From PVC group bacterium (GTDB lineage Bacteria; GCA-001730085; JADFSZ01), in contig JADFSZ010000001.1 in assembly GCA_022560555.1 (NCBI GenBank), positions 4,006 to 36,005 on the forward strand: 32,000 nucleotides of DNA, in the 5' to 3' direction. The first letter of the stretch is position 1. Each line of letters starts with the position of its first letter. The translations under genes and the position numbers were made by a program. Positions 15,090 through 32,000 of the stretch are shown piece after piece. The notes beneath the pieces were generated by a model. The model was given only the letters and a program-made list of their open reading frames with translations. It made no database searches and had not been told where the DNA came from.

Positions 15090-15895
15090 CTGCCCCCTTT
15101 AAGCTCTTCTATCAAACATACGGAAACCCTTCACATCCACCCATCCTATTTCTTCATGGATTTCTCGGATCTCATCGTGATTGGGAATCTATCATTTCAC
15201 AATGCCTTCCTAATTACTTTTCCATAGCGGTTGATCTTCCCGGTCACGGAAAAAGCCCGATATCCGGATCTATTATGACTTTTTCACTGTGTACGGATGC
15301 ACTTGAAGCGGTTTTAAAAGATCTGGGAAGTCTAAAGCCGTTAGCGGTAGGTTACTCCATGGGGGGCCGTCTTCTTTTATGGACGGCCATCCATCGACCT
15401 CATCTGTTTTCTCGGATTCTTCTTGAAAGCGTCCATCCCGGCATTGAGGAAGAAAAGGAACAAGATCAGCGCATCCAATCAGACGCATTATTGTCCCAAA
15501 AACTGAAAGTGATGCCCTTCAATGATTTTCTAAGATATTGGTATCGCTCAAGCATGTTCGCCTCTCTTGTACAAACACCGGACGCACTCGAGAGCATCAT
15601 CCGGCTACGATTAGACAACAATCCCGAAGAATTATCTCAAGCCTTAAAATATCTAGGAACGGGCCGGCAACAACCTCTGTGGGGAGAGCTTAAAAATCTA
15701 AATATTCCTGTGCATTTGCTTGCAGGAGTTTTGGATGAGCACTACGTCCGTATTGCAAGAAGAATCAAAAATATATTGCCTGAGAGTTCTCTTCATTTGA
15801 TCCCAAAAACGGGTCACAATATTCACCTGGAAAATCCTAAAGAATTTTGCCTGCATCTGCATAACTTCTTGACCCTAGAGTTCAACACCCATTAA
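15086..15895 (+). CDS. menH: SHCHC synthase MenH (alpha/beta hydrolase)
   Basis: ATGA overlap with the menD stop. HGFLGS oxyanion region, nucleophile elbow GYSMGGR and C-terminal GHNIH. Assigned as MenH from operon context. Confidence 0.72.
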   Translation: MTAPFKLFYQTYGNPSHPPILFLHGFLGSHRDWESIISQCLPNYFSIAVDLPGHGKSPISGSIMTFSLCTDALEAVLKDLGSLKPLAVGYSMGGRLLLWTAIHRPHLFSRILLESVHPGIEEEKEQDQRIQSDALLSQKLKVMPFNDFLRYWYRSSMFASLVQTPDALESIIRLRLDNNPEELSQALKYLGTGRQQPLWGELKNLNIPVHLLAGVLDEHYVRIARRIKNILPESSLHLIPKTGHNIHLENPKEFCLHLHNFLTLEFNTH

Positions 15896-17332
15896 ATACA
15901 ATTTTTGGTATCCGTAATCTCCTTCTAATAGCGCGTTCGTAAAATTAAATTTACGCTGATATTCTAGAATTTCTTTCTTGTCTCTTACAACGAAAAACGC
16001 TTTCGATTTATTCGGGGGCAACTCTTCGATTGCTTTTTTGGGTTTATCAAATAACCAAACCGTATCCGGCAATCCTTTCATGCGCCCTGCTAAGATCAGA
16101 GAGTAAGGATCCGCTGCAGAAGAGATGTACACAAAGACATTCGAATCAGTTTGATACACATCTCTGATTTTTTTGGCCAATTCCAGAGGATGAAACTCGT
16201 CCAGATAATAAGGCGCAACAAGATCATCCTGCTCCTGTTGAGGCGAAAGAATTGAAGAGAAAATATGGATATTTTGTTTAACGAATTGGCTCCATACAAC
16301 CGTAAGGATGAGAATAATAACAGCGATTATTTTACCATAATACGGATACCGCAATCGTACCCACGATAAGGCCGTCTTCAGCCATACAGAAGATCCAAAA
16401 TACCATAAAGGAAGGAAAATTAGAAACACGCGTGGGTAGGGAGACGGATTTAGGATCAATATTATAATCAACGGAAGCATAAATGAAAAAAGGATCATGG
16501 TATGACACGAATGGTTTTTTAAAAGGCTTGCAAGCCGACGAACTCTTAAAAATATTCCCAGAAGTATCACGAGCACCATCGGCAGACACGCCATAAACAC
16601 CGCTCCATATAAGTGTTCCATAGTTTGCCACGGACTACTCCAACCTGCCTGCCGTCCGGCAAATGTCACCATACTGGACATCTTGGGAAGATACATAATA
16701 CCCGAAGACAATGCGAGACTGCTGATCACCAACCTAGTTTTAAGACAACCTCTCGATTGGGTAAGAAAGAGTGGCATTAGGGCGATAAAATAAAAAATAT
16801 TGAAGGGAACAACCCACACAGCTAAAAAGGTCAAGCCCACAAAAAGAAACCCGCCGCGTCTCACTTCCCCGCGCCGAATAAGCTGCGCACTCCAGAGACC
16901 GAGAACGCCCAGCCACATGGACAACATATATCCGCGAACCGCGCATCCATAGATACTAAATGGTACAGATGTGATAAAAGCCGTTATTCCGAGGAGGGTA
17001 GGCCAAAAACCGAGCGGACGATACCACACACGCCATATTGTGATAACAACACATCCGGATAAGACAAAAGACAACAAACGAAACAAAAAAATGGGATCTT
17101 GAAACCATGATTCTAAAGCTAAAGTCCAGAACCGCAATAGTACATTAAATCCGATATGATTATTGGGAATAGGATAATAGGAAAATATCTCTAAAAAAGA
17201 AGGGAGTGTAACAAATTCAATAATCGTTAATGCCTCATCATACCATAAAGGGCGGCTTAAATGAGGCACCAACAGAGTCCATGACACACACAGTGTAAGC
17301 AGGCCCACCAATTGTACTTTTCGTTCCCTCAT
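15875..17332 (-). CDS. GT-C fold membrane glycosyltransferase (family 39/PMT_2/ArnT-like)
   Basis: 485 aa with about 11 predicted TM helices, a first-loop acidic motif PLWYDEALTI typical of GT39/83-type enzymes, and a ~130-aa soluble C-terminal domain. The 3' end overlaps the menH 3' end by 21 nt (convergent). Confidence 0.55.
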   Translation of the reverse strand: MRERKVQLVGLLTLCVSWTLLVPHLSRPLWYDEALTIIEFVTLPSFLEIFSYYPIPNNHIGFNVLLRFWTLALESWFQDPIFLFRLLSFVLSGCVVITIWRVWYRPLGFWPTLLGITAFITSVPFSIYGCAVRGYMLSMWLGVLGLWSAQLIRRGEVRRGGFLFVGLTFLAVWVVPFNIFYFIALMPLFLTQSRGCLKTRLVISSLALSSGIMYLPKMSSMVTFAGRQAGWSSPWQTMEHLYGAVFMACLPMVLVILLGIFLRVRRLASLLKNHSCHTMILFSFMLPLIIILILNPSPYPRVFLIFLPLWYFGSSVWLKTALSWVRLRYPYYGKIIAVIILILTVVWSQFVKQNIHIFSSILSPQQEQDDLVAPYYLDEFHPLELAKKIRDVYQTDSNVFVYISSAADPYSLILAGRMKGLPDTVWLFDKPKKAIEELPPNKSKAFFVVRDKKEILEYQRKFNFTNALLEGDYGYQKLYLMGVEL

Positions 17333-17368: not shown

Positions 17369-17809
17369 TTACCTTGATGTGTCTTCATAAATAATATAAT
17401 TGGGAAATTTATCGGCATATTTTCCAATCCACTCTAATGCGGCCTCTTCTCCCGTAAGCACACGACCCTCTTTTTGGAAGATTTCTTTTTTATATTGTTC
17501 AATATAACAGATCTGTTCTACCATACGGATTCGATTTTCGTCTTGAGGATTTACAAATTTCACACCAACATGATATTCACCTTTGGTCTTCCGGCACCAA
17601 ACAACAGTGGCTTTAACCTGAAATACCGGATCAACCAAAGGGATTTTTATATGAATGATGGCCCCTTCCTTTAGGGTGACCTTTGATCGAAATGATAATC
17701 CGCCTACACTGATATCATCTAAATAATCTTTTGTATCCACGGCAACATCGGCAAGCTGAATATCAATGGGAATATTTGACGGATGTCTGATGAATTCGCG
17801 AAATTTCAT
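17369..17809 (-). CDS. Stand-alone PilZ domain protein (c-di-GMP receptor type) with ~50-aa helical C-terminal extension
   Basis: N-terminal REFIR (RxxxR) and DISVGG (DxSxxG), with a beta-rich core between and after the two motifs. AGAGGG Shine-Dalgarno 5 nt upstream. Confidence 0.8.
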   Translation of the reverse strand: MKFREFIRHPSNIPIDIQLADVAVDTKDYLDDISVGGLSFRSKVTLKEGAIIHIKIPLVDPVFQVKATVVWCRKTKGEYHVGVKFVNPQDENRIRMVEQICYIEQYKKEIFQKEGRVLTGEEAALEWIGKYADKFPNYIIYEDTSR

Positions 17810-21037: not shown

Positions 21038-21508
21038 TTATTTAGCGATTTTCAGAATTTTTAATTTAGTAATTTCCCCTCTAATCAAACTGTTAATATT
21101 CTGAAAGAAGCTTTTCATAGTCTGAACGTACTTGTCGAGTCGTGGATCAGTTAGATTTGTCATACTTTCCAAGCTTTTAATATTCACATCGTTTGTATTT
21201 TCAACAGATGTCAGCCAGTAAATTATGTATTGCGCGGCCTGCTCGAGACGGCTCTCTCTGGGGATAGTTTCATAAATACCCACCATGATGAAATACGCGT
21301 CCAGTTGCGTCACAGTCATAACAGACGCGTCCCACAATGTGTTAGCCAGTATGACTTCCTTCGTCTTTGTGAGAACGGTTTTTAATTCTACAGAAACTTG
21401 AAACATCTTATCGCGCATACTCTTAAGCTCCGAAATCGTGCTTTCGGCATAAGCCGCCGATGAGGCGAAGAAAATACCTATCGTGAATAAACAAATTATT
21501 TTTTTCAT
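21038..21508 (-). CDS. Secreted/periplasmic hypothetical protein (no family recognised)
   Basis: 156 aa. Clear Sec signal peptide MKKIICLFTIGIFFASSAAYA|E and a predicted helical remainder. AAGGAG Shine-Dalgarno 5 nt upstream. Operon context supports that it is real. Confidence 0.6.
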   Translation of the reverse strand: MKKIICLFTIGIFFASSAAYAESTISELKSMRDKMFQVSVELKTVLTKTKEVILANTLWDASVMTVTQLDAYFIMVGIYETIPRESRLEQAAQYIIYWLTSVENTNDVNIKSLESMTNLTDPRLDKYVQTMKSFFQNINSLIRGEITKLKILKIAK

Positions 21509-21532: not shown

Positions 21533-22099
21533 TTAGAATTCCTTTTGCGGAATAATCAGTTTTGAGATAACCATATTGCATCTGGCGATACTTGAATCCT
21601 TTGACTTAGGGCCAATTTGAAAACTTTCAACCGTTAAAAATTTAGTTGAGCTTTCAATGCCATGCATAAATTCCACAACTTGTTCCATTTGGGCTTCATA
21701 ATTTATGTTAACTTGAAACTTTTTGGCAATCCCAAGCTCTTTGATTCCCGACGGCTTAATGTCGATTAAATATACCGAAGAACGATTGGCCATCCCTTCA
21801 ACTTCTTTTAAGAGTGATGTCATACCCTGCTCCTCTGTGGCCATGCCTACCAGTAATTTCTCATATTTTTTCATTTCTTTTTCGATACGATCTTTTTGAG
21901 CGAGAATCTTTAAGCTTCTCTTAATCTCGGCCTCCTTGGCCGCAATATCCTGATTGTACATACGAAATTTATCGATGAGCGGCTTGACGAGCATATTATC
22001 AAGAAGCGCGAGCGAGCAAAACAACACAGCTCCGTAGAATACAAGCCTTTCTCTTTTTGAAAGTTTTTTAACGAAATCAACAATAAAATTCAAATTCAC
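21533..22099 (-). CDS. PilO/GspM-like bitopic assembly protein
   Basis: 188 aa, GTG start with AAGGAG Shine-Dalgarno 7 nt upstream. Short cytoplasmic N-terminus, one TM helix (LVFYGAVLFCSLALL), a coiled-coil segment and a ~90-aa C-terminal alpha/beta domain. The architecture and its position after the PilM/N-like gene match PilO/GspM. Confidence 0.6.
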   Translation of the reverse strand: MNLNFIVDFVKKLSKRERLVFYGAVLFCSLALLDNMLVKPLIDKFRMYNQDIAAKEAEIKRSLKILAQKDRIEKEMKKYEKLLVGMATEEQGMTSLLKEVEGMANRSSVYLIDIKPSGIKELGIAKKFQVNINYEAQMEQVVEFMHGIESSTKFLTVESFQIGPKSKDSSIARCNMVISKLIIPQKEF

Positions 22100-22111
22100 C
22101 GTACGGCTCCT

Positions 22112-23566
22112 TTAATCTGAAACACTCGCCAATAAACAGGATATTTCAAAATCCGTCACATCACGAAGCCCGTCTTTTCTTTTGGCTGTGTATTTAGTTT
22201 TGACATTTTTTAGGAATTCAGATTTTTCCATATGATCAACAAAATAAAACACGGTTGACATCGATCGAGCCGTGCCGCGAATCGAAAATCGCCCCCGGCT
22301 ATCATAACGGATAAAATTCAGCTCCAAGTCCGAAGGGATTAATTGATAAATCTCCGTTAAAACTAAAAGAGAATACCCGCGCTTCGATTGATAGTTCCGT
22401 ATGAGCGTAATTTTACTAAAGCTGTCTTCAAGTTTTTCTGCCGCTTCATTTATGGGTTTGTATTTGGTTTCCAAATTAGAGATATAAACACTCTTAAATG
22501 CCATATTCGAAAGCAGAACAGAAAAACCCAGGATAAAAATTATAAGAATAAGAATACCTGTTTTGATCATGTCACGGCTGCGCTCTTCAAGTTGACGCTG
22601 TATTTTTACCTCCTGGGGGATCAAGTTGACTTTAAGATCCTTCCCTGCCGACATGACTCCCATCAGGGCAAGCAAAGAAATCCCTTTCTCTTTTTCCAGA
22701 TTTTGAGCCGCGCTTTTTGAAATGTGGAAATACTTTTCATAGGGTAGTATCTTGACGGGAAGAAGAAGGTTGTCCGATATCGTTTCTTCTGCTCCCACAA
22801 ACATTTCTACCGCTCCCGTAATGAAAGCCTCCCCGGGACGCTTTCCTATATCTTCAGACAAATACGCCTCCAAAGATTTTTTCAACTCATCCGTAAAACG
22901 CTGCAAAGATTGTTCGCGATTACCGGCCATTTCCACGCATCCCAAAGGGATGTTTCGAATAAAAATTACCTTTGCTTGAGAGACAATCGTAAAATCTGTG
23001 TGGGTTTCGTCAATATGGATCATATTGATTGGGGTATTGCTTGAGCTTTTGATTTTAAATATTTTTGAGGCACTCCAGGCTAATGATTCCGGAGCCAAAT
23101 ATACGTTTTCCAATGCTAAGCCCGCATTTTTAAAAATATCGATATATCTTCGAATAATATTTTTCGAGACAATCACCAAAAGCGCTTTTGTATAGTTTTG
23201 TTTGTATACTTCGATGTTGATATAGTCCACAATAATGTCTTCGCGGGAATGAGGGGTATAGCGGCTCGCTTGCAGATTGATAATCTCTTTGATTTCATCA
23301 GGATCAACAGAGGGCAGCTCAATATTTCTTGTAATCACTTGATGACTTGGTACGATCGTCAAGACACCGGCATTACGGGCTTTAGATTCTTCACAATACG
23401 CTTGTATTTGATGCGCGATATCCTCGTCACTCATGGAGCTGATGTTACACGTGTAAATATCCTGGATGTCATGACGAGAGCTCCCCATATGAATAAACCG
23501 CAATGTATCTCCCGAAAGATCAATTCCGACAAGGGCCGTACTTTTCGTCGCGCTTAGATTAAACAT
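22112..23566 (-). CDS. PilM::PilN fusion protein (GspL-equivalent platform protein)
   Basis: 484 aa. The N-terminal ~312 aa are actin-like and PilM-type (ALVGIDLSGDTLRF...). Then come the PilN hallmark VNLIPQEV, a TM helix GILILIIFILGFSVLLSNMAF and a ~120-aa periplasmic domain (coordinates 22115-22630). Confidence 0.72.
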   Translation of the reverse strand: MFNLSATKSTALVGIDLSGDTLRFIHMGSSRHDIQDIYTCNISSMSDEDIAHQIQAYCEESKARNAGVLTIVPSHQVITRNIELPSVDPDEIKEIINLQASRYTPHSREDIIVDYINIEVYKQNYTKALLVIVSKNIIRRYIDIFKNAGLALENVYLAPESLAWSASKIFKIKSSSNTPINMIHIDETHTDFTIVSQAKVIFIRNIPLGCVEMAGNREQSLQRFTDELKKSLEAYLSEDIGKRPGEAFITGAVEMFVGAEETISDNLLLPVKILPYEKYFHISKSAAQNLEKEKGISLLALMGVMSAGKDLKVNLIPQEVKIQRQLEERSRDMIKTGILILIIFILGFSVLLSNMAFKSVYISNLETKYKPINEAAEKLEDSFSKITLIRNYQSKRGYSLLVLTEIYQLIPSDLELNFIRYDSRGRFSIRGTARSMSTVFYFVDHMEKSEFLKNVKTKYTAKRKDGLRDVTDFEISCLLASVSD

Positions 23567-23569
23567 CCC

Positions 23570-24631
23570 TTAGTTCTCCCGCCAAAAAAGTATTTTTCCT
23601 TTGCGATCCGCAACGCATGTAACATCCATTTTTATTTTCTGATTCGCCAAAAAAGCCCGGCATTGAATTTTAAATATTTGAGAATGTGTTTTCAATTTCT
23701 GATCAGCCACAATACTGATCTTCGCGAGCTCTGAAGGGCTTAAATGCGTTCGCTGACTCAACTGAGGCACAATGCTTGATGGATTTGTAAAAATGCCGTC
23801 ATCCGCCGTACCGGGCACCCCATCCTCACCAAAACGAAATGTCATAATTTTGTCGATAATACTCTTATCTAAGCCCAATCCATAAAAAACTTCCCTCGAG
23901 GCCGTGTTCGCGTTAATCTTTCCGTTGCCGTAAATCGTGACATAATTCTTAATAATGTCAACCACATCTTTGTTGACCCCTTTCACTAAATACAATTCAT
24001 CAAAAACTTGAAAAGGAGCGTCTTTCGCTTCGTACGCGAATGCCCCGCTCCGATATTCCCGATCTTCCGCGCTTCCCAGAGGGATGGAGAGCTGGCTGTC
24101 TTCGTCCCGCCAATCTACAATCGCGGCGGCGATTTCTTGAGCTTCTATTTTATCAAAACCAAGGCCGTCTCTCAAAAGTTGGCGCAGAATAATATCATCT
24201 TCTATATTAATATTGATCTTTCTTTCTTCATCAACAAACCCAAATCGAGTTATCAGTTCATTTGACACAATATCACGGTCCACATAGGATATCTCACAAA
24301 AGCCATCTCCAATAGGCATCTTTTTAAAAACAGCTTCTGTGTCAAACCAATACTCGCCTAAAGATGTGTACTCAATAAACTCATCCTCTCCGGGAATAAT
24401 CATTGTGATTGCTTTTTTAACACCGGCTTCCGCGATAGAACGGAGCTTTCCTCTCTCATTTATTCGGGTGGCCAATGTAAGCTTTTGACGAACGGTAACA
24501 CTGGTTATAATCGCAAAAGTGGACAACATCAACAGTGTCCATAAGGTCAAAATAAGGATACTTCCCTGAACTCTACCCTCCCGAAAGGATGCTAACTGTT
24601 TTCGCATAACGTATCTTTTTTGTTCCGTCAT
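23570..24631 (-). CDS. gspK: T2SS minor pseudopilin GspK-like
   Basis: 353 aa. N-terminal hydrophobic segment GSILILTLWTLLMLSTFAI, which lacks the Glu+5. Large globular domain with the GspK-type helix-hairpin-helix block KINANTASREVFYGLGLDKSIIDKIMTFR. Confidence 0.78.
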   Translation of the reverse strand: MTEQKRYVMRKQLASFREGRVQGSILILTLWTLLMLSTFAIITSVTVRQKLTLATRINERGKLRSIAEAGVKKAITMIIPGEDEFIEYTSLGEYWFDTEAVFKKMPIGDGFCEISYVDRDIVSNELITRFGFVDEERKININIEDDIILRQLLRDGLGFDKIEAQEIAAAIVDWRDEDSQLSIPLGSAEDREYRSGAFAYEAKDAPFQVFDELYLVKGVNKDVVDIIKNYVTIYGNGKINANTASREVFYGLGLDKSIIDKIMTFRFGEDGVPGTADDGIFTNPSSIVPQLSQRTHLSPSELAKISIVADQKLKTHSQIFKIQCRAFLANQKIKMDVTCVADRKGKILFWREN

Positions 24632-25163
24632 TAATGATGAGCTTCAAGCGCACGGCTAAAGGCATTTTCTCTTCACTCCAGCGTTCCAGCCACACATAAT
24701 TATTTGTCTCAGTATCGTATTTATAGTATTCAAAAGAGGCGGCTTCAATGTTTTCTAATTCGGATGATATTTCCCCGTCTTTGCCGCGGTATAACATGGA
24801 AATATCCTTAAATGCCCTTGTTAAGGTTTTATTCCGCGCGTCATACGTGTAACTGACTTGGCCGATGGTTTTTACCTCAAACTCTTTTGTGTAAACAATT
24901 GTTGGACATTCAAATAACGTTTTTTGGCCGACAAATTGAATACTTGAATATGCATAGCTGTTTCGAATGTCTTCGGAATATCTTTCTAAAAAAATGTTGG
25001 CATTTTCTAGAGAGACCTCGTTTTGAACTCGGCCCCAGATCATAATCCCCTTAGAAAGCGTTGTGTAAATGACAACACTCACAACCCCCAACAGGGATAC
25101 GACTAAAAGAAGCTCGATGAGCGTCAGGCCTTTAGAATTCCGGACTTTCTTGATAATACGCAT
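24573..25163 (-). CDS. Minor pseudopilin, GspJ-like (prepilin-type N-terminal cleavage/methylation domain)
   Basis: Leader MRIIKKVRNSKG | LTLIELLLVVSLLGV with Glu at +5. Size (~184 aa mature) and the C-terminal MPLAVRLKLII block resemble GspJ. Confidence 0.7.
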   Translation of the reverse strand: MRIIKKVRNSKGLTLIELLLVVSLLGVVSVVIYTTLSKGIMIWGRVQNEVSLENANIFLERYSEDIRNSYAYSSIQFVGQKTLFECPTIVYTKEFEVKTIGQVSYTYDARNKTLTRAFKDISMLYRGKDGEISSELENIEAASFEYYKYDTETNNYVWLERWSEEKMPLAVRLKLIINDGTKKIRYAKTVSILSGG

Positions 25164-25566
25164 AAGCTGTTCTTTCTATGTGAAATTCTCTTGTCTGGTT
25201 TTGACGCTCCCGATTTATATAAAATGAAACTTGAAATAGTAATTTTTTTCTGTCTTTGAGCTTATAATTAAGATTCCACGGATACTTGTCAACACCAACA
25301 ATAAGCGTACCGCTTGTGCGCATCTGAGGCCCCAGACTGCCATATCTCATAAGCTGGTTTTGGGCTTCCCAAATTTTCTCATCCACCCAGGGCATAACGT
25401 TCAGGTAGTCTTTATAGTGACTTAAAAGATCTATATTCACAAAAAATGTTTGAAAGATGGAAACAATCCCCATAGACAATATGGAAACGGCAACCAGTAT
25501 TTCGACTAAAGTAAAACCGCTTTTTCGCCCATCTTTTTTTCTAGTCCTTCCAATTCCGCACATCAT
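25132..25566 (-). CDS. Minor pseudopilin, GspI-like (prepilin-type N-terminal domain)
   Basis: ...GRKSG | FTLVEILVAVSILSMG with Glu+5 and ~127 aa mature. Start placed at the ATG at 25566 (GAGGA ~8 nt upstream). The track start at 25587 is also possible. Confidence 0.68.
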   Translation of the reverse strand: MMCGIGRTRKKDGRKSGFTLVEILVAVSILSMGIVSIFQTFFVNIDLLSHYKDYLNVMPWVDEKIWEAQNQLMRYGSLGPQMRTSGTLIVGVDKYPWNLNYKLKDRKKLLFQVSFYINRERQNQTREFHIERTAYAYYQESPEF

Positions 25567-26056
25567 CGTCACTTTCCTCAATACCATCTTTGCCTATGGA
25601 ATAGAGATCATAATCCTTGCGATGATCTCCCGGGCTTTTATACTGATACGGACGCCCCCAGGGGTCGGTAATGTCTGTTTCTAAATAGGGACCGTGCCAG
25701 TTGGAGGCAGAGGCGGTTTTGCTAAGGAGGGCGCTTAAGCCTTCTGATGTAGACGGAAACGCTCCGTTATCCAGTTCATAGAGTTTGAGCGCTGTCGCAA
25801 TATTAGCCTTAATGTCGGCTTCAGCAATAGTCACACGGGCCTGCTCGCTGCGCCCGGTGAGACGGGGCATCACCATCGCGGCTAAAGCACCGATGATAAT
25901 TACAACGAGCAAAAGCTCAACAAGGGTAAAACCCTGTTGATGGCGAAAGCCATTAACAGATCGGAGTTTTGATTTTTGCTTCACAGTATGCTTTCGATTT
26001 TGTCTTACATCTGTCGACTGTTGACTGTCGACTATTGACCCAAAAATATTTGTCAT
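25541..26056 (-). CDS. gspG: Major pseudopilin GspG
   Basis: G|FTLVELLLVVIIIGALAAMVMPR followed by GspG blocks ALKLYELDNGAFPS, GPYLE, DPWGRPYQYKSPG, YDLYSIGKDG and DDVRNW. Start set to the ATG at 26056, which has AAGGAG 8 nt upstream and avoids overlap with the peptidase gene. Confidence 0.9.
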   Translation of the reverse strand: MTNIFGSIVDSQQSTDVRQNRKHTVKQKSKLRSVNGFRHQQGFTLVELLLVVIIIGALAAMVMPRLTGRSEQARVTIAEADIKANIATALKLYELDNGAFPSTSEGLSALLSKTASASNWHGPYLETDITDPWGRPYQYKSPGDHRKDYDLYSIGKDGIEESDDDVRNWKD

Positions 26057-26070
26057 TTCGTTTTCTCCTT

Positions 26071-26985
26071 TTACGAGCTTAATTTTTCTTCTAAATACTC
26101 CCGCCATCGTTCTTCAAATTCATCCAAATTTTTCATTTTATTCGGGTACGCACTTTGAAGAGCCTCCTCGAGTTTTTTGCCGTCCCGCAGCTCACGGCAA
26201 AACTGGGTAAATCTTTTTGCGCCGAACCGATCGATCATAAAGTTAATCATAGCCACGGATTCCAAATAATATGTTTTGACGAGACTCTCAACATCCAGGA
26301 AAAGGGCCGCCATTTTACCTTCCCGCGTTTTCGTGGCTCGAATATATATCCGATCCATATCCTTCAAAAGGCGAATATCGAGTTTCATCATGTCTTCAAT
26401 ACTGAGAAGTTTGTCCTCTTTATAATATTCCATGGCTGTTTGGCTCATGTATTCTCTCTTGGATTCTTCCGCCCATTGCGCCACTCCTTCATCCAGCCAG
26501 AGAGGAATCTCCCCTTTAAATCCCACAAAATCACGGAAAATCAAATGCGCCATTTCATGAGGCAGCAAGGATTCCACAAACCCTTCTCCCCAGGCATAGC
26601 TGACGATTTGTTTGTGCGTATAATCAGCCATGCCATGCGACCATTCAGGCTGATCGGTCGCTTGAATAAAGGCCTTATGATCGGCAAAGATATAAATCGG
26701 AACACGGTTATCCCATGTCCAAAAACCCGAATATCTCGGATAACCGAGTCCTTGAGCGATCCGCACATAATATTTTTCGGCTTTATCAAGTACGTTCTTG
26801 GCAAACTTGTCGTCATCCGTATAATATACAAAAAAATGTTCCCCGCTCACTTTCTTCCAGTCATAATTATCCAGGCTGACACGAATAGCTCCTTTCTGCC
26901 CGGCAAAGAGATCGCTCGTGTGGCCCAGGGCTAACAACAAAGCGCCCGCAATCCATATACTTTTCAATTGATGCATATGTTTCAT
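26071..26985 (-). CDS. Secreted zinc metallopeptidase, Peptidase_MA_2-like (HExxH + downstream Glu)
   Basis: 304 aa. Signal peptide (SIWIAGALLLALGHTSDLFAG), LLPHEMAHLIF (HExxH) and WLDEGVAQWAEE ~20 residues later (gluzincin-type third ligand). Confidence 0.72.
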   Translation of the reverse strand: MKHMHQLKSIWIAGALLLALGHTSDLFAGQKGAIRVSLDNYDWKKVSGEHFFVYYTDDDKFAKNVLDKAEKYYVRIAQGLGYPRYSGFWTWDNRVPIYIFADHKAFIQATDQPEWSHGMADYTHKQIVSYAWGEGFVESLLPHEMAHLIFRDFVGFKGEIPLWLDEGVAQWAEESKREYMSQTAMEYYKEDKLLSIEDMMKLDIRLLKDMDRIYIRATKTREGKMAALFLDVESLVKTYYLESVAMINFMIDRFGAKRFTQFCRELRDGKKLEEALQSAYPNKMKNLDEFEERWREYLEEKLSS

Positions 26986-27063: not shown

Positions 27064-28275
27064 CTACATATTGATTTCAAATATTGGCAAAAGCATCGCC
27101 ATGACTATAAAACCCACTATGAGGCCCATGAAAAGGATAATGAGAGGCTCCATGAGATTGGCTAATATGCGTGACACCTCATCCGTATCGCGCTCATAAC
27201 TTGAGGCCACCTCACTTAAGGCTTCATCCAAAGATCCGGTCTCTTCACCTACAATAAGGAGATTGGTCATAAAAAGAGGAAAAACTTTGACGTCTTTGAG
27301 GCTTTCACCAAGAGGACTGCCGCGTTCCAATTGTTCATAACTCGTTTTTAGCGCGTTTTTCAGAACCTCATTTTTGAGAACCGGTATTGACACATCGAGC
27401 GCCTTGAGAATCGTGATTCCGTTTCGAATCAAAATCTCAAGTGTCCGCGCAAAACGTGATATCTCGGATTTGAGAATAAATTCTCCGTAAATCGGAAGTT
27501 TTAGTTGGAATCGGCCGAAAGAAAGTTTTCCTGATTCTGTTTTAAGGCTCCGGCTAATGACCATACCGAGAAACACACAAGCAATAAGTATCCAAAGCCA
27601 CCAGTCTTGGAGAAAAGTGCTGATGTCAATCAAAATTCTTGTCGGCATCGGGAGCTCTTGTCCCGTCCGGATAAACATCTCGGCCAATTTCGGCACAACA
27701 TAGCTCAACATAAAAATGACGGTTCCGAGTCCAACAAACGCCATCAGCGAGGGATAAACCATCGCCATCCGTAAACGAGCCATCAAAGCATGCTGTTTTT
27801 CCCGGTAATCTGAGATACGCATTAAGGCTTCAGGAAGAGATCCGCTGTTTTCTCCGGCATGAACAATCGAGATATACAAGGATGGGAAAACCTTCGGATA
27901 CTTTTCTAAGGCCGAAGAAAAGGTTCCTCCGTCTTCAACAATGTCATGAATATCATTCAGCATAAAATTGAGACTTGCCTTGTCCGCCTGCTCGGCAATA
28001 ATGGATAAGGCCCTGAGAATGGGGACCCCGGACTTAAGAAGGCTGGCCATCTGACGGCTAAAAAGCGTAATCTGCCTGTGTTTAATCCTTCCCGGCTTGA
28101 TTTTGCTGATTTCTTTCGGAGGCTGAGTTTTGTTCTCTTCTTTTTTTTCCAGCTTAATGGGAAGCAAGCCAAGAGCGTTAATTTTTTCTACGGCATCCTG
28201 CTCGTTATCGGCCTCGATTTGTCCGTCAATAACGTTTTGGGTATCTTTTTTCGCGCGGTAATGAAAAGTAACCAT
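27064..28275 (-). CDS. gspF: Type II secretion/type IV pilus platform protein GspF/PilC family
   Basis: 403 aa. N-terminal FHYRAKKDTQNVIDGQIEA, two T2SSF repeats (FSRQMASLLKSGVPILRAL...; FARTLEILIRNGITILKAL...) and three TM segments. The start lies 1 nt after the gspE stop. Confidence 0.9.
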   Translation of the reverse strand: MVTFHYRAKKDTQNVIDGQIEADNEQDAVEKINALGLLPIKLEKKEENKTQPPKEISKIKPGRIKHRQITLFSRQMASLLKSGVPILRALSIIAEQADKASLNFMLNDIHDIVEDGGTFSSALEKYPKVFPSLYISIVHAGENSGSLPEALMRISDYREKQHALMARLRMAMVYPSLMAFVGLGTVIFMLSYVVPKLAEMFIRTGQELPMPTRILIDISTFLQDWWLWILIACVFLGMVISRSLKTESGKLSFGRFQLKLPIYGEFILKSEISRFARTLEILIRNGITILKALDVSIPVLKNEVLKNALKTSYEQLERGSPLGESLKDVKVFPLFMTNLLIVGEETGSLDEALSEVASSYERDTDEVSRILANLMEPLIILFMGLIVGFIVMAMLLPIFEINM

Positions 28276-28276
28276 A

Positions 28277-30460
28277 TCACTCGTTCAGATCGGAATCAAT
28301 ATACCGATTCAATTTTGCTCTGTCAGCACTTGCAATATCTAAATAACAAACGGCAATATCATACGTTTTGTTCGAAACATCTTCATCAACACGAACAGCT
28401 TTCGCGAGACAGACAATAGGATTTTCGTCACCTTCCAATTCAACCTTAAGATCCAGTAAAGAACCGATCGCAACGGGTTTATGTGCCACAAACAAAATCC
28501 CTCCAGCAGATACATTTTTTGTGACCGCTAACTGCTCAGGCTTAAACACCCCTTTAATCAATTCGTCATGAGATTTGTAAACTTTGTAAGAAATATTCAG
28601 GTTCCGGGCCAATCTAGAATAATTACGCCGCCCCTGAACATTTTCGCTTGATTCATCGCTAAGGGTACTAGGCGGTGGAGATCCCTTGGTCGGCCTCGTT
28701 CCTGTTGCAATGGCTGTTCTCACAGGCACCCCGGGATCCACTATGGGTGTAACCTGCATGATTTCTTCCGCAGTTGTGACACCTTGGACAACTTTCTGCC
28801 AACCGTCTTGTCTTAAAACACGCATACCTTTTTGGATGGCAACACGTTTGATATGGCTGGACGATGTTTTTTTAATAATCAAATCTTTGATTTCATCATC
28901 CACAAGCAATATCTCGTAGATCGCTACACGGCCAAAAAAACCAGTAAAATTGCAATTGGGGCACCCTTTCCCTCGATAAATTTTCATATTCGCGTCTTTC
29001 AGCCCTAAATCCCGGGCCAGGGTTTCTTTGAGTTCTTTCGGTGTGATTTTGTCTTCATATTTACAATCGGAACAGATCATACGTATCAGTCTTTGAGCGA
29101 TAAAGGCTTCCACGCTTGAGGCTACGAGATAGGGCTCCACGCCGATGTCCACAAGACGCGTAATACCGCTCGACGCGTCATTCGTATGAAGAGTGGAAAA
29201 TATCAGATGTCCCGTCAAAGCCACGCGAATAGCGATGGAAGCCGTCTCAAGGTCTCTCACTTCGCCCACCATGATCACATCGGGGTCATGCCGCAAGATA
29301 CTTCTCAGCCCCCGCGCGAAATCAAGTCCGATTTCAGACATAACCTGCATCTGTGTAATCCCCTTCATTTCATATTCCACGGGATCCTCGATGGTGATAA
29401 TTTTACGTTCTCTTGTGTTAATGCGATTCAAACAGGAATAAAGAGTGGTTGTTTTTCCGCTTCCCGTGGGGCCCGTGAGAAATACAATGCCGTGGGGTTT
29501 TTGTATCAGGCTTTCAAAGACTCTTAATTCCGCCATGGCTAGACCCAGCTTTTCCAAACTGAACAGACGACTGCTCGGCAACATTCTCACGACGACACTC
29601 TCTCCGAAAGGCGTGGGAACAGTGGAGATACGCAAGTCCAAAACATCGTCCTGAACTTTCACCATGGCGCGTCCATCTTGCGGCAATCGCCTCTCAACAA
29701 TGTTCAAGCTGGACATAATTTTAATGCGTGAAATAATCGCGTTAATATTTTTTTTGACGCCGGGTGAAATATTTGTCTCATAAAGAAGCCCGTCGATACG
29801 GTACCTTAAAGATACACCGCCGCGAAACGGCTCAATATGAATATCCGTCGCGCGTTTACGCCATCCTTCTAAAATGATTTGATTCACGAGCTTGATAACA
29901 GACTCATCATCAGCTAGATCCTCTAAATCCGTAAGCTCGTCTTTCTCTTGTGCCTTTGAGTCCTTTTTCGAGGCAGTCTCCGCAACGACTGACATTCTGT
30001 CCAAGGTTTCAGCCCCTAAACCATAACTTCTTTTCAATGCTTCCATCATATCTTTTGTCGATGTTAAAACAAACGCGACTTCATAACCGAGCTGCGTGCG
30101 TATCTCATCCTGGGTCTTCAGATCCATGGGGGCATTCACAGCAACAGTCAACGTTCGTCCTTTAATACGCATCGGTAAAAAACGATAGTATGTTGCGATT
30201 TTGACGGGAACAATATCCAGGACTTTCTGGTCTACCTCGGCATTGCGGACATCAACAATTTCAAGCCCAAGCGTATCGGAAAGAACCTGTAAAATATCCG
30301 TTTCTTTAATCACTGATTTACTGATAAGGACCTGCTGCAGCGTTGCACCTGATTGACCAATTTCTTTAAGTAAAGGCTCGAGCTTCTCTTTGGACAACAT
30401 GCCTTTTTGCATCAAAGCTTCTAAGAGGACTGTGTCATGTTTTTTCGTGCTTGGCATCAT
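28277..30460 (-). CDS. gspE: GspE/PilB-family secretion ATPase with N-terminal MshEN-like (T2SSE_N) domain and C-terminal PilZ domain
   Basis: 727 aa, one uninterrupted ORF. Walker A GPTGSGKTTT, Walker B IIMVGEVRD, His box TGHLIFSTLHTND and tetracysteine CSDC...CPNC. After a Pro/Ser/Thr-rich linker comes a PilZ with RRNYSR (RRxxxR) and NVSAGG (NxSxxG). Confidence 0.9.
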   Translation of the reverse strand: MMPSTKKHDTVLLEALMQKGMLSKEKLEPLLKEIGQSGATLQQVLISKSVIKETDILQVLSDTLGLEIVDVRNAEVDQKVLDIVPVKIATYYRFLPMRIKGRTLTVAVNAPMDLKTQDEIRTQLGYEVAFVLTSTKDMMEALKRSYGLGAETLDRMSVVAETASKKDSKAQEKDELTDLEDLADDESVIKLVNQIILEGWRKRATDIHIEPFRGGVSLRYRIDGLLYETNISPGVKKNINAIISRIKIMSSLNIVERRLPQDGRAMVKVQDDVLDLRISTVPTPFGESVVVRMLPSSRLFSLEKLGLAMAELRVFESLIQKPHGIVFLTGPTGSGKTTTLYSCLNRINTRERKIITIEDPVEYEMKGITQMQVMSEIGLDFARGLRSILRHDPDVIMVGEVRDLETASIAIRVALTGHLIFSTLHTNDASSGITRLVDIGVEPYLVASSVEAFIAQRLIRMICSDCKYEDKITPKELKETLARDLGLKDANMKIYRGKGCPNCNFTGFFGRVAIYEILLVDDEIKDLIIKKTSSSHIKRVAIQKGMRVLRQDGWQKVVQGVTTAEEIMQVTPIVDPGVPVRTAIATGTRPTKGSPPPSTLSDESSENVQGRRNYSRLARNLNISYKVYKSHDELIKGVFKPEQLAVTKNVSAGGILFVAHKPVAIGSLLDLKVELEGDENPIVCLAKAVRVDEDVSNKTYDIAVCYLDIASADRAKLNRYIDSDLNE

Positions 30461-30475
30461 TAAGCTCTTTACTGT

Positions 30476-30931
30476 TTATTTGTATTTTGATTTAACATGA
30501 TCACGGTATCTTTCAATGACATAATCGATATCACTTTTCGTGGTCAATACCAGCTTTACTTTTAGGCCCCGGGCTTCGGCCTCGGCCTTTTGAAGCACGT
30601 CAAGATCCAAGGGATTTGTGAGAGCCATGGTCACAGACACATCGTCTTCAGACACCGGGACACAATGAAAATCCATCACCAACGAAGGACTGTATTTCCC
30701 CAAAAGCTTCCAGTCCACATATTTATATTTTAACTCAACTATGGGAATAGTAAACTGCTCAGATAAAACGGCTAAAAGCTCACTCTCCTTGATCCACCGC
30801 TTCTTGAGCAGGATCTCCCCCAGGAACTGATCCGAAATTTTCTGTTCTTTGAGTGCCAAATTTAACTGTTCCGGTTTCAGCATCCCTTTTTCAACAAGAA
30901 TTTCACCGATTTTTTTCTTTTTTCGCTCCAT
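30476..30931 (-). CDS. Stand-alone MshEN / T2SSE_N domain protein (putative c-di-GMP receptor)
   Basis: 151 aa with no ATPase domain. KIGEILVEKGMLKPEQLNLALKEQ - KISDQ - FLGEILLKKRWIKESELLAVLSEQ matches the tandem 24-residue MshEN motif with its 5-residue spacer. The rest resembles the GspE N1 domain (HCVPVSEDDVSVTMALTNPLDLDVL). Confidence 0.8.
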   Translation of the reverse strand: MERKKKKIGEILVEKGMLKPEQLNLALKEQKISDQFLGEILLKKRWIKESELLAVLSEQFTIPIVELKYKYVDWKLLGKYSPSLVMDFHCVPVSEDDVSVTMALTNPLDLDVLQKAEAEARGLKVKLVLTTKSDIDYVIERYRDHVKSKYK

Positions 30932-30951: not shown

Positions 30952-32000
30952 TCATTTGTTATTGATTTGGTCCAATGCTCCGATCAGGTAAAACTTGTTT
31001 TCAGGTACCTGATCCACTCGACCGGACATAATTTTCTCGCATCCGGCCAATGTCTTATCCAAAGGCACATATTCTCCTTTTTTTCCTGTATAAGCCTCGG
31101 CAACCGAGAAAGGCTGTGTCAGGAAAAACTGAAGTTTCCGCGCGCGTTCATATGTCACGCGATCGGCCATAGACAATTCATCGACGCCTATCACAAGCAC
31201 AATGCGCCTCAATTCTTCATATTTCTGAAACATACGGATCACTTCATGCGCAATATCCACATGCCGTTTTCCAATAATATCGATATCTAAATTAGCACTG
31301 GAAGACAGTAAAGGATCCACCGCAGGATAAATTCCTTGCTGCACTTTTTCACGGGATAAGACCATTACGTTATCAAGAAAACTAAAAAGAGCCACCACCG
31401 CCGGATCCGTCAAATCATCCGCCGGCACATAAACGGCTTCAATAGACGTTATCGAGCCTCCTCCCTGGCTTGTTCGAATCCGTTCATGAAATTCACTGGC
31501 TTCGGCCATCATCGTCGGCTGGTACCCCGTCTCGGAGGGAACGCGCCCCATGAGGGTGGATATCTCCGCTCCGGCTTGGATATAACGAAAAATATTATCC
31601 ACAAAAAGGAGGACATCTTTGTTTTTTCTTTGGATGGATTCGGCCAACGTGATCCCCGTCATCGCGACGCCGAATCGAGCTCCCGGAGGTTCGTTCATTT
31701 GCCCGAACACCATCATAGTTTTTGAAAGAACACCATGATGCTTAAGCTCAAGGTAGAGTTCGTTTCCCTCTCGAATCCGTTCTCCGATTCCGGTAAAAAC
31801 ACAGGACCCTTCGTGTTCTTTGACAATATGCTGAATAATTTCCAACGTTAAAACACTCTTTCCCATGCCCGCTCCCCCCAAAATCCCTGTTTTGGATCCC
31901 TTCACAAGAGGAAAAAGCAAATCAATGACTTTCAATCCGGTTTCCAAAACCTCAAACGATTTCTCCTTTTTCTCACTTGTGTTAATGAGGCTGCCCATAT
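30952..32000 (-). CDS. atpD: F1-ATPase beta-subunit-like protein, divergent; 5' end probably beyond window edge
   Basis: 348 aa visible. P-loop GGAGMGKS, GIGERIREGNELY, QMNEPPGAR, DNIFRYIQAGAEIS, VYVPADDLTDPA, YPAVDPL and DELSMAD in place of DELSEED. The Walker A lies ~40 aa from the in-window ATG at 31998, versus ~150 aa in canonical beta subunits, so the N-terminal domain is most likely off-window. Confidence 0.85.
   Translation of the reverse strand, partial: MGSLINTSEKKEKSFEVLETGLKVIDLLFPLVKGSKTGILGGAGMGKSVLTLEIIQHIVKEHEGSCVFTGIGERIREGNELYLELKHHGVLSKTMMVFGQMNEPPGARFGVAMTGITLAESIQRKNKDVLLFVDNIFRYIQAGAEISTLMGRVPSETGYQPTMMAEASEFHERIRTSQGGGSITSIEAVYVPADDLTDPAVVALFSFLDNVMVLSREKVQQGIYPAVDPLLSSSANLDIDIIGKRHVDIAHEVIRMFQKYEELRRIVLVIGVDELSMADRVTYERARKLQFFLTQPFSVAEAYTGKKGEYVPLDKTLAGCEKIMSGRVDQVPENKFYLIGALDQINNK

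What the first reader, a model, noticed from the sequence alone, without database searches (positions are those of the whole stretch)
28280..28633. Canonical PilZ domain fused to the C-terminus of the GspE/PilB-type motor ATPase
After the complete ATPase core, which ends around ...TAEEIMQVTP, a ~35-aa Pro/Ser/Thr-rich linker leads into a 118-aa module. This module carries both PilZ signature motifs, RRNYSR (RRxxxR, aa 611-616) and NVSAGG (NxSxxG, aa 649-654), with beta-strand-like sequence around them. The reading frame is continuous with no stop or frameshift. PilZ proteins normally act on such motors in trans, so a covalent fusion would put c-di-GMP sensing directly on the hexameric motor. 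I am not aware of a characterised example, but I cannot search.
Basis: partly seen in the sequence, partly recalled or inferred. Interest (0 to 1): 0.75.

Follow-up and report, generated by a model that had tools for sequence, protein, structure and literature searches.

The report
Secretion motor ATPase with built-in PilZ sensor
The motor ATPase of a type II secretion-like machine in this Omnitrophota-like genome carries a c-di-GMP-sensing PilZ domain on a flexible tail. The fusion is real and conserved across the phylum, and no paper I could find describes or tests it.

Summary
Confirmed. The minus-strand ORF 28277..30460 encodes one 727-aa protein with three domains:
- MshEN-type N-domain, aa 1-149
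- GspE/PilB-type ATPase, aa 182-568, with all catalytic motifs and the CxxC…CxxC zinc motif
- canonical PilZ domain, aa 611-722, joined by a disordered 38-aa linker

PilZ passes Pfam's cut-off (38-43 bits against 22.5). Its AlphaFold2 model (pLDDT 87.9) matches solved c-di-GMP-bound PilZ structures. R612, R616, N/D649, S651 and G654 are conserved in 119-121 of 121 homologues.

It is not an assembly artefact. About 215 distinct protein clusters and 66 species-representative genomes, nearly all labelled Omnitrophota, encode the same single ORF in the same operon: atpD, stand-alone MshEN, GspE::PilZ, GspF, peptidase, GspG…K, L-like, M-like.

The ATPase's own N-terminal c-di-GMP motif is degenerate. 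The small MshEN protein encoded 15 nt upstream has an intact one.

Most likely the tethered PilZ makes the hexameric motor directly responsive to c-di-GMP. Whether it activates or inhibits is unknown; activation is my guess.

Seven literature searches found no description of this covalent fusion. I rate it a new, uncharacterised variant of known c-di-GMP control of secretion and pilus ATPases.

The parts
28277..30460 (-). Whole gene: 727-aa MshEN + GspE/PilB-type ATPase + PilZ fusion protein, stop codon included
   Evidence: ORF list. Pfam MshEN 60.9 bits, T2SSE 428.2 bits, PilZ 38.2 bits. The best 120 homologues in each of two searches all carry the same three domains.
30014..30460 (-). N-terminal MshEN-type domain (aa 1-149). 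Its four-helix c-di-GMP motif region (aa ~5-63) is degenerate.
   Evidence: PF05157 matches aa 64-149. NF053729 (MshE-related c-di-GMP motif) scores 24.6 bits, below the 38-bit cut-off. The Arg, Gly and Gln of both 24-residue motifs are replaced throughout the family. None of 55 related N-termini matches the strict motif.
28757..29917 (-). T2SSE ATPase core (aa 182-568). It contains the Asp box ITIEDPVE (355), Walker B DPDVIMVGEVRD (392), His box TGHLIFSTLHT (416) and the zinc motif CSDC (463) … CPNC (500).
   Evidence: Pfam. Motif positions. The key residues of these motifs are invariant in 55 aligned homologues. Closest solved structures are PilF, PilB and GspE, and all of them end at query residue ~572.
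29450..29473 (-). Walker A, GPTGSGKT (aa 330-337)
28631..28744 (-). Disordered linker (aa 573-610), rich in Pro, Ser and Thr in this copy
   Evidence: pLDDT is below 50 for aa 577-610 in the full-length model. Identity to homologues is 7%. Linker length, counted from T571 to R612, is 26-49 aa across the family and 40 aa here; the composition is E/S/A/P-rich.
28295..28630 (-). PilZ domain (aa 611-722)
   Evidence: PF07238 above the gathering cut-off. AF2 model pLDDT 87.9 with six strands and a C-terminal helix. Foldseek best matches are PilZ structures at probability 1.00, TM 0.6-0.7.
28613..28630 (-). RRNYSR, the RxxxR c-di-GMP-binding motif (aa 611-616)
   Evidence: R612 in 121/121 and R616 in 120/121 homologues; position 611 is R or K in 104/121.
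28499..28516 (-). NVSAGG, the [D/N]xSxxG c-di-GMP-binding motif (aa 649-654)
   Evidence: N/D 121/121, S 119/121, G654 121/121.
30476..30931 (-). Stand-alone 151-aa MshEN protein, 15 nt upstream. It has an intact tandem c-di-GMP motif: KIGEILVEKGMLKPEQLNLALKEQ, spacer KISDQ, FLGEILLKKRWIKESELLAVLSEQ.
   Evidence: PF05157 45.1 bits. NF053729 60.2 bits, above the 38-bit cut-off. An upstream ORF of this kind is listed in 38 of the 55 complete related loci; tblastn hits in 56 of 66 loci include hits to the fusion's own N-domain. Spacing read.
27064..28275 (-). GspF/PilC platform protein. Its start codon lies 1 nt after the fusion gene's stop codon.
   Evidence: PF00482 201.9 bits. Junction sequence. 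Present directly downstream in 63 of 66 loci.
21533..26985 (-). Rest of the operon: secreted Peptidase_MA (26071-26985), GspG major pseudopilin (25541-26107), N-methyl pseudopilin (25132-25587), GspJ-like (24573-25163), GspK (23570-24631), PilM+PilN fusion equivalent to GspL (22112-23566), PilO/GspM-like (21533-22099)
   Evidence: Pfam. Gene order is conserved in related loci.

Best explanation
The gene encodes the assembly ATPase (GspE/PilB class) of a type II secretion-like endopilus machine in an Omnitrophota-like bacterium. A canonical, c-di-GMP-competent PilZ domain is attached to its C-terminus by a 26-49-residue disordered tether. An assembled hexamer would therefore carry six PilZ receptors.

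Proposed mechanism:
- c-di-GMP binds the RxxxR loop and the [D/N]xSxxG strand of PilZ.
- Binding orders the N-terminal loop and changes which surface the domain offers.
- The tethered domain then docks on, or releases, a part of the motor: its own degenerate N1 (MshEN) domain, the ATPase ring, or the GspL/PilM-like partner.
- This switches ATPase activity or coupling to the GspF platform, so pseudopilus assembly and secretion follow the cell's c-di-GMP level.

I favour activation by c-di-GMP. The neighbouring stand-alone MshEN protein is probably a second, higher-affinity c-di-GMP input to the same motor.

Shown here: the domain identities, the PilZ fold, conservation of the motifs, the flexible linker, the single ORF, the conserved operon, and the spread across the phylum. 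Inferred: c-di-GMP binding, the docking target, and the sign of regulation.
For: - Domains: Pfam hits for all three domains lie above their cut-offs.
- Fold: the PilZ model has pLDDT 87.9. Foldseek's first 33 PDB matches are all PilZ-domain structures; the best are c-di-GMP receptors (MotI/DgrA 5vx6, Alg44 4rt0, 4xrn, MrkH, PP4397 3kyf, YcgR 5y6g, BcsA).
- Ligand residues: R612 121/121, R616 120/121, N/D649 121/121, S651 119/121 and G654 121/121. The linker, by contrast, shows 7% identity and variable length.
- Linker: disordered in the full-length model, and pTM is only 0.50, as expected for a tethered domain.
- ATPase: all catalytic motifs and the zinc motif are intact and invariant.
- Single ORF: it carries Walker A plus PilZ in all but one of the ORFs not cut by a contig end among 66 species-representative loci; L054 misses only the strict Walker A pattern. 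It also appears in all 240 listed hits of two searches.
- Operon: gene junctions of 1 nt and 15 nt, and conserved gene order.
- c-di-GMP signalling in this genome: a second canonical PilZ protein at 17369-17809 and an MshEN protein that passes NF053729.
- c-di-GMP signalling in the phylum: GGDEF domains and pilZ genes are reported in Omnitrophota (bioRxiv 10.1101/2023.11.21.568195).
- Precedents from established knowledge: c-di-GMP binds MshE and a P. aeruginosa T2SS ATPase through the N-terminal MshEN domain (PMC5013675). In Xanthomonas the PilB-PilZ-FimX complex forms on the PilB N-terminal domain, and FimX, the c-di-GMP receptor of that complex, enhances PilB ATPase activity (PMC8389850). 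From my own knowledge, the C-terminal PilZ of cellulose synthase BcsA relieves autoinhibition when c-di-GMP binds.
Against: - No binding or activity data exist for any member of the family.
- A monomer AF2 model cannot show where PilZ docks, and pTM 0.50 gives no preferred arrangement.
- The sign of regulation rests only on analogy. PilZ proteins such as YcgR and MotI, the best structural match, act as brakes or clutches, so inhibition is equally possible in mechanistic terms.
- A minority of homologues lack the first basic residue of [RK]RxxxR.
- NCBIfam equivalog cut-offs for both GspE and PilB are missed, so the machine type (secretion or pilus) is inferred from the neighbouring genes.
- No secretin, prepilin peptidase or retraction ATPase lies in the window.
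Confidence: 0.7

Rival explanations
1. The PilZ domain is a c-di-GMP-dependent brake or clutch. When c-di-GMP is bound, it docks on the ATPase ring or the N-domain and inhibits ATP turnover or uncouples the motor from GspF. High c-di-GMP would then shut secretion or pseudopilus assembly off.
For: The best structural match is B. subtilis MotI/DgrA (5vx6, E 1.4e-5), and YcgR is also among the matches. Both are c-di-GMP-dependent motor inhibitors (my own knowledge). The same conserved motifs and tether support binding, but they say nothing about the sign of regulation.
Against: In the papers I read, c-di-GMP acts on GspE/PilB-class assembly ATPases through receptor domains or partner proteins (MshEN in MshE, FimX with PilZ in Xanthomonas), and the one activity result read is stimulatory: FimX enhances PilB ATPase (PMC5013675, PMC8389850). 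From my own knowledge, the characterised cases, including the cis-fused PilZ of BcsA, are positive regulators.
Confidence: 0.25
2. The PilZ domain is only a protein-protein adaptor or localisation module and does not signal through c-di-GMP. This would resemble the non-canonical PilZ of Xanthomonas and Pseudomonas, which binds PilB but not c-di-GMP.
For: PilZ-fold adaptors on PilB exist, and the PilB N-domain is a known PilZ docking site (PMC8389850; bioRxiv 10.1101/814665).
Against: Those adaptor PilZ proteins have lost the RxxxR and DxSxxG motifs. Here both motifs are kept in 119-121 of 121 sequences, at only ~47-49% overall domain identity to the window copy, which points to selection on the ligand site.
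Confidence: 0.04
3. The fusion is an artefact: an assembly chimera, a frameshift, or a lost stop codon joining a GspE gene to a separate pilZ gene.
For: None found.
Against: The same ~700-780-aa single ORF occurs in about 215 distinct 90%-identity clusters from ENA, JGI, NCBI and Logan assemblies. It also occurs in 66 GTDB species-representative genomes, including single-cell genomes. A 99%-identical copy lies on an independent contig. In the 55 complete loci, PilZ was found only inside the ATPase ORF; no separate gspE and pilZ genes were seen there.
Confidence: 0.01

Closest known systems
MshE / PA14_29490-type ATPases: GspE/PilB-class motors that bind c-di-GMP through their N-terminal MshEN domain (Wang et al. 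2016, PMC5013675; Roelofs et al. 2015, PMC4624772)
   Same: Same ATPase class and same N-domain fold family. The logic is also the same: a c-di-GMP receptor domain sits on the same polypeptide as the motor.
   Different: In those proteins the receptor is the N-terminal four-helix tandem 24-residue motif. Here that motif is degenerate (24.6 bits against a 38-bit cut-off), and the receptor is a C-terminal PilZ barrel on a flexible tether. An intact MshEN motif is present, but on a separate 151-aa protein encoded upstream.
PilB-PilZ-FimX complex of Xanthomonas citri and the Pseudomonas PilZ-PilB pair (Llontop et al. 2021, PMC8389850)
   Same: A PilZ-fold protein is physically associated with a PilB-class motor and links it to c-di-GMP.
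   Different: There PilZ is a separate protein, lacks the binding motifs and does not bind c-di-GMP; FimX's EAL domain is the sensor. Here PilZ is covalently attached, canonical, and presumably the sensor itself.
Enzymes with a cis C-terminal PilZ: cellulose synthase BcsA and alginate co-polymerase Alg44
   Same: A canonical PilZ is fused in cis to the output machine, so c-di-GMP binding directly gates activity. Alg44 and BcsA PilZ structures are among the Foldseek matches.
   Different: The output domain is a hexameric secretion ATPase rather than a glycosyltransferase or a membrane-fusion-type protein. PilZ is joined by a long disordered linker rather than packed against the catalytic domain.
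Thermus thermophilus PilF, a PilB-class ATPase with three GSPII/MshEN domains, one of which binds c-di-GMP tightly (PMC11731258)
   Same: It is the best sequence match among solved structures (6f8l, 460 bits). Its accessory sensor domains are a mix of functional and degenerate copies.
   Different: All of PilF's extra domains are N-terminal MshEN copies. None of the 21 solved homologues listed extends past query residue ~572, so none has a C-terminal PilZ.

Membership tests
PilZ domain (PF07238), canonical c-di-GMP-binding type | Profile match above Pfam's gathering score | tested here: met
   38.2 bits in the whole protein and 43.1 bits for the isolated 118 aa, against a cut-off of 22.5.
PilZ domain (PF07238), canonical c-di-GMP-binding type | RxxxR motif in the flexible N-terminal loop | tested here: met
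   RRNYSR at aa 611-616. R612 is in 121/121 and R616 in 120/121 homologues.
PilZ domain (PF07238), canonical c-di-GMP-binding type | [D/N]xSxxG motif on the barrel | tested here: met
   NVSAGG at aa 649-654. N/D 121/121, S 119/121, final G 121/121.
PilZ domain (PF07238), canonical c-di-GMP-binding type | Six-stranded beta-barrel followed by a C-terminal helix | tested here: met
   AF2 model pLDDT 87.9 with six strands and helix 106-121. Foldseek probability 1.00 to MotI, Alg44, MrkH, PP4397 and YcgR, with TM 0.61-0.72 normalised to the query.
PilZ domain (PF07238), canonical c-di-GMP-binding type | Specific binding of c-di-GMP | not testable with these tools
   Needs ITC, DRaCALA or MST on purified protein.
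GspE/PilB-class secretion ATPase (PF00437 T2SSE) | T2SSE profile match, with Walker A, Asp box, Walker B and His box | tested here: met
   428.2 bits. GPTGSGKT at 330, ITIEDPVE at 355, DPDVIMVGEVRD at 392, TGHLIFSTLHT at 416. The key residues are invariant in 55 homologues.
GspE/PilB-class secretion ATPase (PF00437 T2SSE) | Tetracysteine zinc motif, which separates assembly ATPases (GspE/PilB) from PilT | tested here: met
   CSDC at 463 and CPNC at 500. C463, C466, C500 and C503 are invariant.
T2SS ATPase GspE, NCBIfam equivalog TIGR02533 | Score at or above the curated equivalog cut-off | tested here: not met
   584.2 bits against a cut-off of 630.25. I therefore do not file it as a strict GspE equivalog.
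Type IVa pilus ATPase PilB, NCBIfam equivalog TIGR02538 | Score at or above the curated equivalog cut-off | tested here: not met
   571.3 bits against a cut-off of 675.65.
Type II secretion system (machine-level assignment) | Operon with GspF, the GspG major pseudopilin, minor pseudopilins J and K, and GspL/M-type assembly proteins | tested here: met
   T2SSF, T2SSG (108.7 bits), T2SSJ (25.2 bits, below its 28-bit cut-off), T2SSK_1st, PilM_2+PilN fused in one protein, and T2SSM_b/PilO. Gene order is conserved in related loci.
Type II secretion system (machine-level assignment) | Outer-membrane secretin GspD and prepilin peptidase GspO | tested here: inconclusive
   Neither was found among the window ORFs scanned. 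They may be encoded elsewhere in the genome. Secretin genes are reported in other Omnitrophota T2SS-like loci.
MshEN c-di-GMP receptor (N-domain of the fusion protein) | Tandem 24-residue motif RLGxx(L/V/I)(L/V/I)xxG(L/V/I/F)(L/V/I)xxxxLxxxLxxQ | tested here: not met
   NF053729 scores 24.6 bits against a 38-bit cut-off. Arg, Gly and Gln are replaced in both repeats across the family. None of 55 related N-termini matches. The fold-level PF05157 match to aa 64-149 is met.
Xanthomonas/Pseudomonas type II (non-canonical) PilZ adaptor of PilB | Separate polypeptide that lacks the RxxxR and DxSxxG motifs | tested here: not met
   Here PilZ is covalently fused and both motifs are present and conserved. 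It may work in a related way, but it is not a member of that group.

The most novel reading that the evidence does not exclude
The Omnitrophota secretion motor is a dual-receptor c-di-GMP switch.
- A ring of six tethered PilZ domains acts in cis.
- A separately encoded MshEN protein acts in trans. It would replace the ATPase's own decayed N-terminal c-di-GMP site.
- Both converge on the motor's degenerate N1 domain.

This would give two affinity thresholds, for example MshEN in the nanomolar range and PilZ in the micromolar range. Those thresholds would gate secretion or pseudopilus extension during host attachment by these ultra-small, host-dependent bacteria. A covalent PilZ ring on a hexameric PilB/GspE-class ATPase would be a regulatory design not yet described for any type IV filament machine.
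Probability: 0.25. Interest if true: 0.7.

Novelty: new variant of a known kind. Interest (0 to 1): 0.5.

Why it matters
c-di-GMP control of type IV pilus and type II secretion motors is well studied. In the cases I could find, the signal enters through the N-terminal MshEN domain or through separate proteins such as PilZ and FimX. A canonical PilZ fused to the motor is a third route.

The fusion also gives a one-polypeptide system. Ligand binding and ATPase output could be measured in a single purified protein, which may help show how accessory domains talk to the PilB/GspE hexamer.

This appears to be the standard form of the enzyme across Candidatus Omnitrophota, a phylum of mostly uncultured, very small and probably host-dependent bacteria. 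That suggests c-di-GMP-gated secretion or pseudopilus assembly is central to their way of life. The protein may also serve as a convenient marker for the phylum.

Taken with the decayed MshEN site in the motor and the intact stand-alone MshEN next door, it looks like an example of sensor modules being swapped around a conserved motor during evolution.

Tried and rejected
- Word-indexed search with only the C-terminal 162 aa found nothing. The full-length query was needed.
- A sequence-only PDB search with the PilZ profile gave only marginal hits: YpfA/MotI at E 0.005, plus spurious helical proteins. The fold comparison settled the question.
- I tried to learn whether T2SSE+PilZ fusions exist outside Omnitrophota, and could not.
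  - The HMM search of 1.84 billion representatives with the PilZ profile returned fragments and full copies of this same family, then unrelated PilZ architectures: tandem PilZ, PilZ x3-Hsp70, GAF-HD-PilZ and CBS-PilZ.
  - The search with the most divergent member (L066) again listed only the same family.
  - Only the best 120-150 hits are shown, so absence elsewhere is not demonstrated.
  - One hit, P0190 (3205 aa), is a false positive made of ubiquitin-hydrolase repeats.
- The full-length AF2 monomer model was meant to show where PilZ docks. With pTM 0.50 and no coordinates or PAE returned, it shows only that the linker is disordered.
- I tested whether loci that lack the stand-alone MshEN gene compensate with an intact motif in the ATPase N-terminus. 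They do not: 0 of 55.
- The stand-alone PilZ at 17369-17809 is not a recent duplicate of the fused PilZ; BLASTP finds no significant similarity.
- No GGDEF, EAL or HD-GYP gene was found among the window ORFs of 100 aa or more that I scanned.
Full report
**Observation.**
The finding's coordinates, 28280-28633, lie on the minus strand. They translate to the last 118 residues (aa 610-727) of a 727-aa ORF at 28277..30460.

The reading frame runs without interruption from the ATPase core (…TAEEIMQVTP, aa 563-572), through a 38-aa linker, into the module.

**Domain identity.**
Pfam finds three domains:
- MshEN (PF05157) at aa 64-149, 60.9 bits
- T2SSE (PF00437) at aa 182-568, 428.2 bits
- PilZ (PF07238) at aa 611-722, 38.2 bits; the isolated 118 aa score 43.1 bits (E 5.6e-11) against a gathering cut-off of 22.5

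The ATPase has Walker A, the Asp box, Walker B, the His box and the CxxC…CxxC zinc motif typical of assembly ATPases. Their key residues are invariant in 55 aligned homologues.

It scores just below the NCBIfam equivalog cut-offs for both GspE (584 against 630) and PilB (571 against 676). I therefore call it GspE/PilB-class rather than either one. The closest solved structures are T. thermophilus PilF, Geobacter and Myxococcus PilB, and Vibrio GspE. Every one of them stops at about query residue 572, so none has the C-terminal module.

**PilZ fold.**
An AlphaFold2 model of aa 606-727, built on 46 homologous sequences, has mean pLDDT 87.9. It shows six beta-strands followed by a C-terminal helix.

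In the Foldseek search against the PDB, the first 33 matches are all PilZ-domain structures, at probability 1.00 and TM 0.46-0.72 (normalised to the query). The best ones are c-di-GMP receptors, several solved with the ligand bound:
- MotI/DgrA 5vx6
- Alg44 4rt0
- 4xrn
- MrkH
- PP4397 3kyf
- YcgR 5y6g
- BcsA

**The fusion is real.**
A search with the full-length protein returned 120 listed clusters of 702-759 aa. All carry PF07238, PF05157 and PF00437, at 58-65% identity, plus one 99%-identical copy on an independent ENA contig. Where a source gives a name, it is Candidatus Omnitrophota or Omnitrophica. One entry is labelled Margulisiibacteriota and another Thermoproteota; these are probably binning errors.

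A second search, using the most divergent member I found (L066), gave the same picture. Together the two searches cover about 215 distinct clusters.

A scan of one genome per GTDB species found 66 loci, all from Omnitrophota-type MAGs or single-cell genomes; a few are labelled "uncultured Planctomycetia". In all but one locus where the ORF is not cut by a contig end, PilZ lies in the same frame as a Walker A-bearing ORF, usually ~705-775 aa long. L054 misses only the strict Walker A pattern. An assembly or frameshift artefact is therefore excluded.

**Selection.**
Figures come from the 121-sequence alignment; the last two columns leave out the window copy and its 99%-identical twin.

| Region | Mean identity to the window copy | Mean majority-residue fraction |
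|---|---|---|
| ATPase core | 77% | 0.87 |
| PilZ domain | 49% | 0.72 |
| Linker | 7% | 0.24 |

- The ligand-contacting residues are almost invariant: R612 121/121, R616 120/121, N/D649 121/121, S651 119/121 and G654 121/121.
- The linker varies from 26 to 49 residues and is rich in E, S, A and P.
- In the full-length AF2 model, aa 577-610 have pLDDT below 50, the PilZ block stays at about 77-96, and pTM is only 0.50.
- Together these describe a folded sensor on a flexible tether with no fixed position in the monomer.

**Context.**
The gene sits in a tightly packed minus-strand operon:
- atpD, cut by the window end
- a 151-aa stand-alone MshEN protein, followed by a 15-nt gap
- GspE::PilZ, followed by a 1-nt gap
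- GspF
- a signal-peptide-bearing Peptidase_MA
- GspG
- two further N-methyl pseudopilins, one of them GspJ-like
- GspK
- a PilM+PilN fusion, which is the GspL arrangement
- a PilO/GspM-like protein

This gene order recurs across the related loci. By tblastn, GspF is found in 63 of 66 loci, atpD in 50, the peptidase in 42, GspG in 38, GspK in 33 and PilM/N in 27. Many loci are short, so these are minimum counts.

The machine is therefore T2SS-like. No secretin, prepilin peptidase or PilT lies in the window.

**An unexpected second receptor.**
The N-terminal four-helix region of the fusion protein keeps the hydrophobic skeleton of the MshEN c-di-GMP motif. Across the whole family, however, it has lost the Arg, Gly and Gln of both 24-residue repeats. 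It scores 24.6 bits on NCBIfam NF053729, against a cut-off of 38. None of 55 related N-termini matches a strict motif pattern.

The stand-alone MshEN protein immediately upstream carries a near-perfect tandem motif: KIGEILVEKGMLKPEQLNLALKEQ, spacer KISDQ, FLGEILLKKRWIKESELLAVLSEQ. It scores 60.2 bits on the same model. An upstream ORF of this kind is listed in 38 of the 55 complete related loci. Where it is absent, the ATPase N-terminus is still degenerate.

The genome also encodes another canonical stand-alone PilZ at 17369-17809, with REFIR and DISVGG motifs. It is not closely related to the fused domain.

**Mechanism.**
The shown facts are a catalytically intact GspE/PilB-class ATPase, a canonical PilZ on a long flexible tether, strict conservation of the c-di-GMP-binding residues, and operon coupling to the platform protein.

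The inference is that c-di-GMP binds PilZ and changes how the domain interacts with the motor or its partners. Motor output would then follow c-di-GMP levels.

The most plausible docking target is the motor's own N-terminal domain. The separate PilZ of Xanthomonas binds that domain (PilB residues 12-163) (PMC8389850).

I favour activation, at roughly 60:40. [quoted passage not shown] From my own knowledge, the characterised cases of c-di-GMP control of this ATPase class, and the cis-PilZ of BcsA, are positive regulators. The brake or clutch model (YcgR, MotI) remains open.

**Comparison and novelty.**
c-di-GMP-responsive GspE/PilB ATPases are known, whether through MshEN in cis or through PilZ and FimX in trans. 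Enzymes with a cis-fused PilZ are also known, such as BcsA and Alg44.

Seven full-text searches found no description of a covalent T2SSE-PilZ protein. I also read the MshEN paper, the PilZ-diversity preprint by Galperin and Chou, a 2024 review of PilB cofactors, a 2023 review of c-di-GMP evolution, and the Omnitrophota giant-gene preprint. None describes one.

Public databases already tag these proteins automatically with the three domains, so the architecture is recorded but not discussed or characterised. I rate it a new variant of a known kind, of moderate interest.

I could not establish whether the fusion also occurs outside Omnitrophota. The tools list only the best 120-150 hits, and all of those belong to this one family.

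Noticed in passing
window 30476-30931 (-): A 151-aa stand-alone MshEN protein lies 15 nt upstream of the fusion gene. It has an intact tandem c-di-GMP motif (NF053729 60.2 bits, cut-off 38), whereas the ATPase's own N-domain motif is degenerate. An upstream ORF of this kind is listed in 38 of 55 complete related loci. It looks like a split-off or replacement c-di-GMP sensor for the same motor.
   Followed up: partly
window 26071-26985 (-): A 304-aa Peptidase_MA-type metalloprotease (HEMAH) with a signal peptide is inserted between gspF and gspG. It is conserved at that position in 42 of 66 related loci. It could be a substrate or a processing factor of the system. A protease gene inside a T2SS core operon is unusual.
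   Followed up: partly
window 30952-31998 (-): F1 ATP synthase beta subunit (atpD, cut by the window end) lies directly upstream of the secretion operon, only 20 nt from the MshEN gene. No epsilon-subunit (atpC) gene lies between them. The atpD-MshEN-GspE adjacency is conserved in about 50 of 66 loci.
   Followed up: partly
window 17369-17809 (-): A 146-aa stand-alone canonical PilZ protein (RxxxR = REFIR, DxSxxG = DISVGG; PF07238 58.3 bits). It has no significant similarity to the fused PilZ, so it is an independent c-di-GMP receptor in the same genome.
   Followed up: partly
window 22112-23566 (-): A 484-aa protein combines PilM_2 (aa 47-210) and PilN (aa 402-477) in one chain, which is the GspL-type arrangement. 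It is the likely cytoplasmic docking partner of the ATPase.
   Followed up: no
window 15875-17332 (-) and 21038-21508 (-): Two ORFs, of 485 aa and 156 aa, have signal-peptide-like hydrophobic N-termini and no Pfam or NCBIfam match. The 156-aa ORF lies at the end of the secretion operon and could be a GspC/PilP-like component. No secretin, prepilin peptidase or PilT was seen anywhere in the window.
   Followed up: no
window 4351-5538 (+): A FIST_N + FIST_C sensor-domain protein (395 aa) has no attached output domain. No GGDEF, EAL or HD-GYP gene was found among the window ORFs of 100 aa or more that I scanned.
   Followed up: no
P0190 (hit, not in the window): A 3205-aa protein scored E 8e-24 against the PilZ profile over 10 stretches, but it consists of ten ubiquitin C-terminal hydrolase repeats. 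It is a false positive of the profile search, and a caution for reading that hit list.
   Followed up: yes
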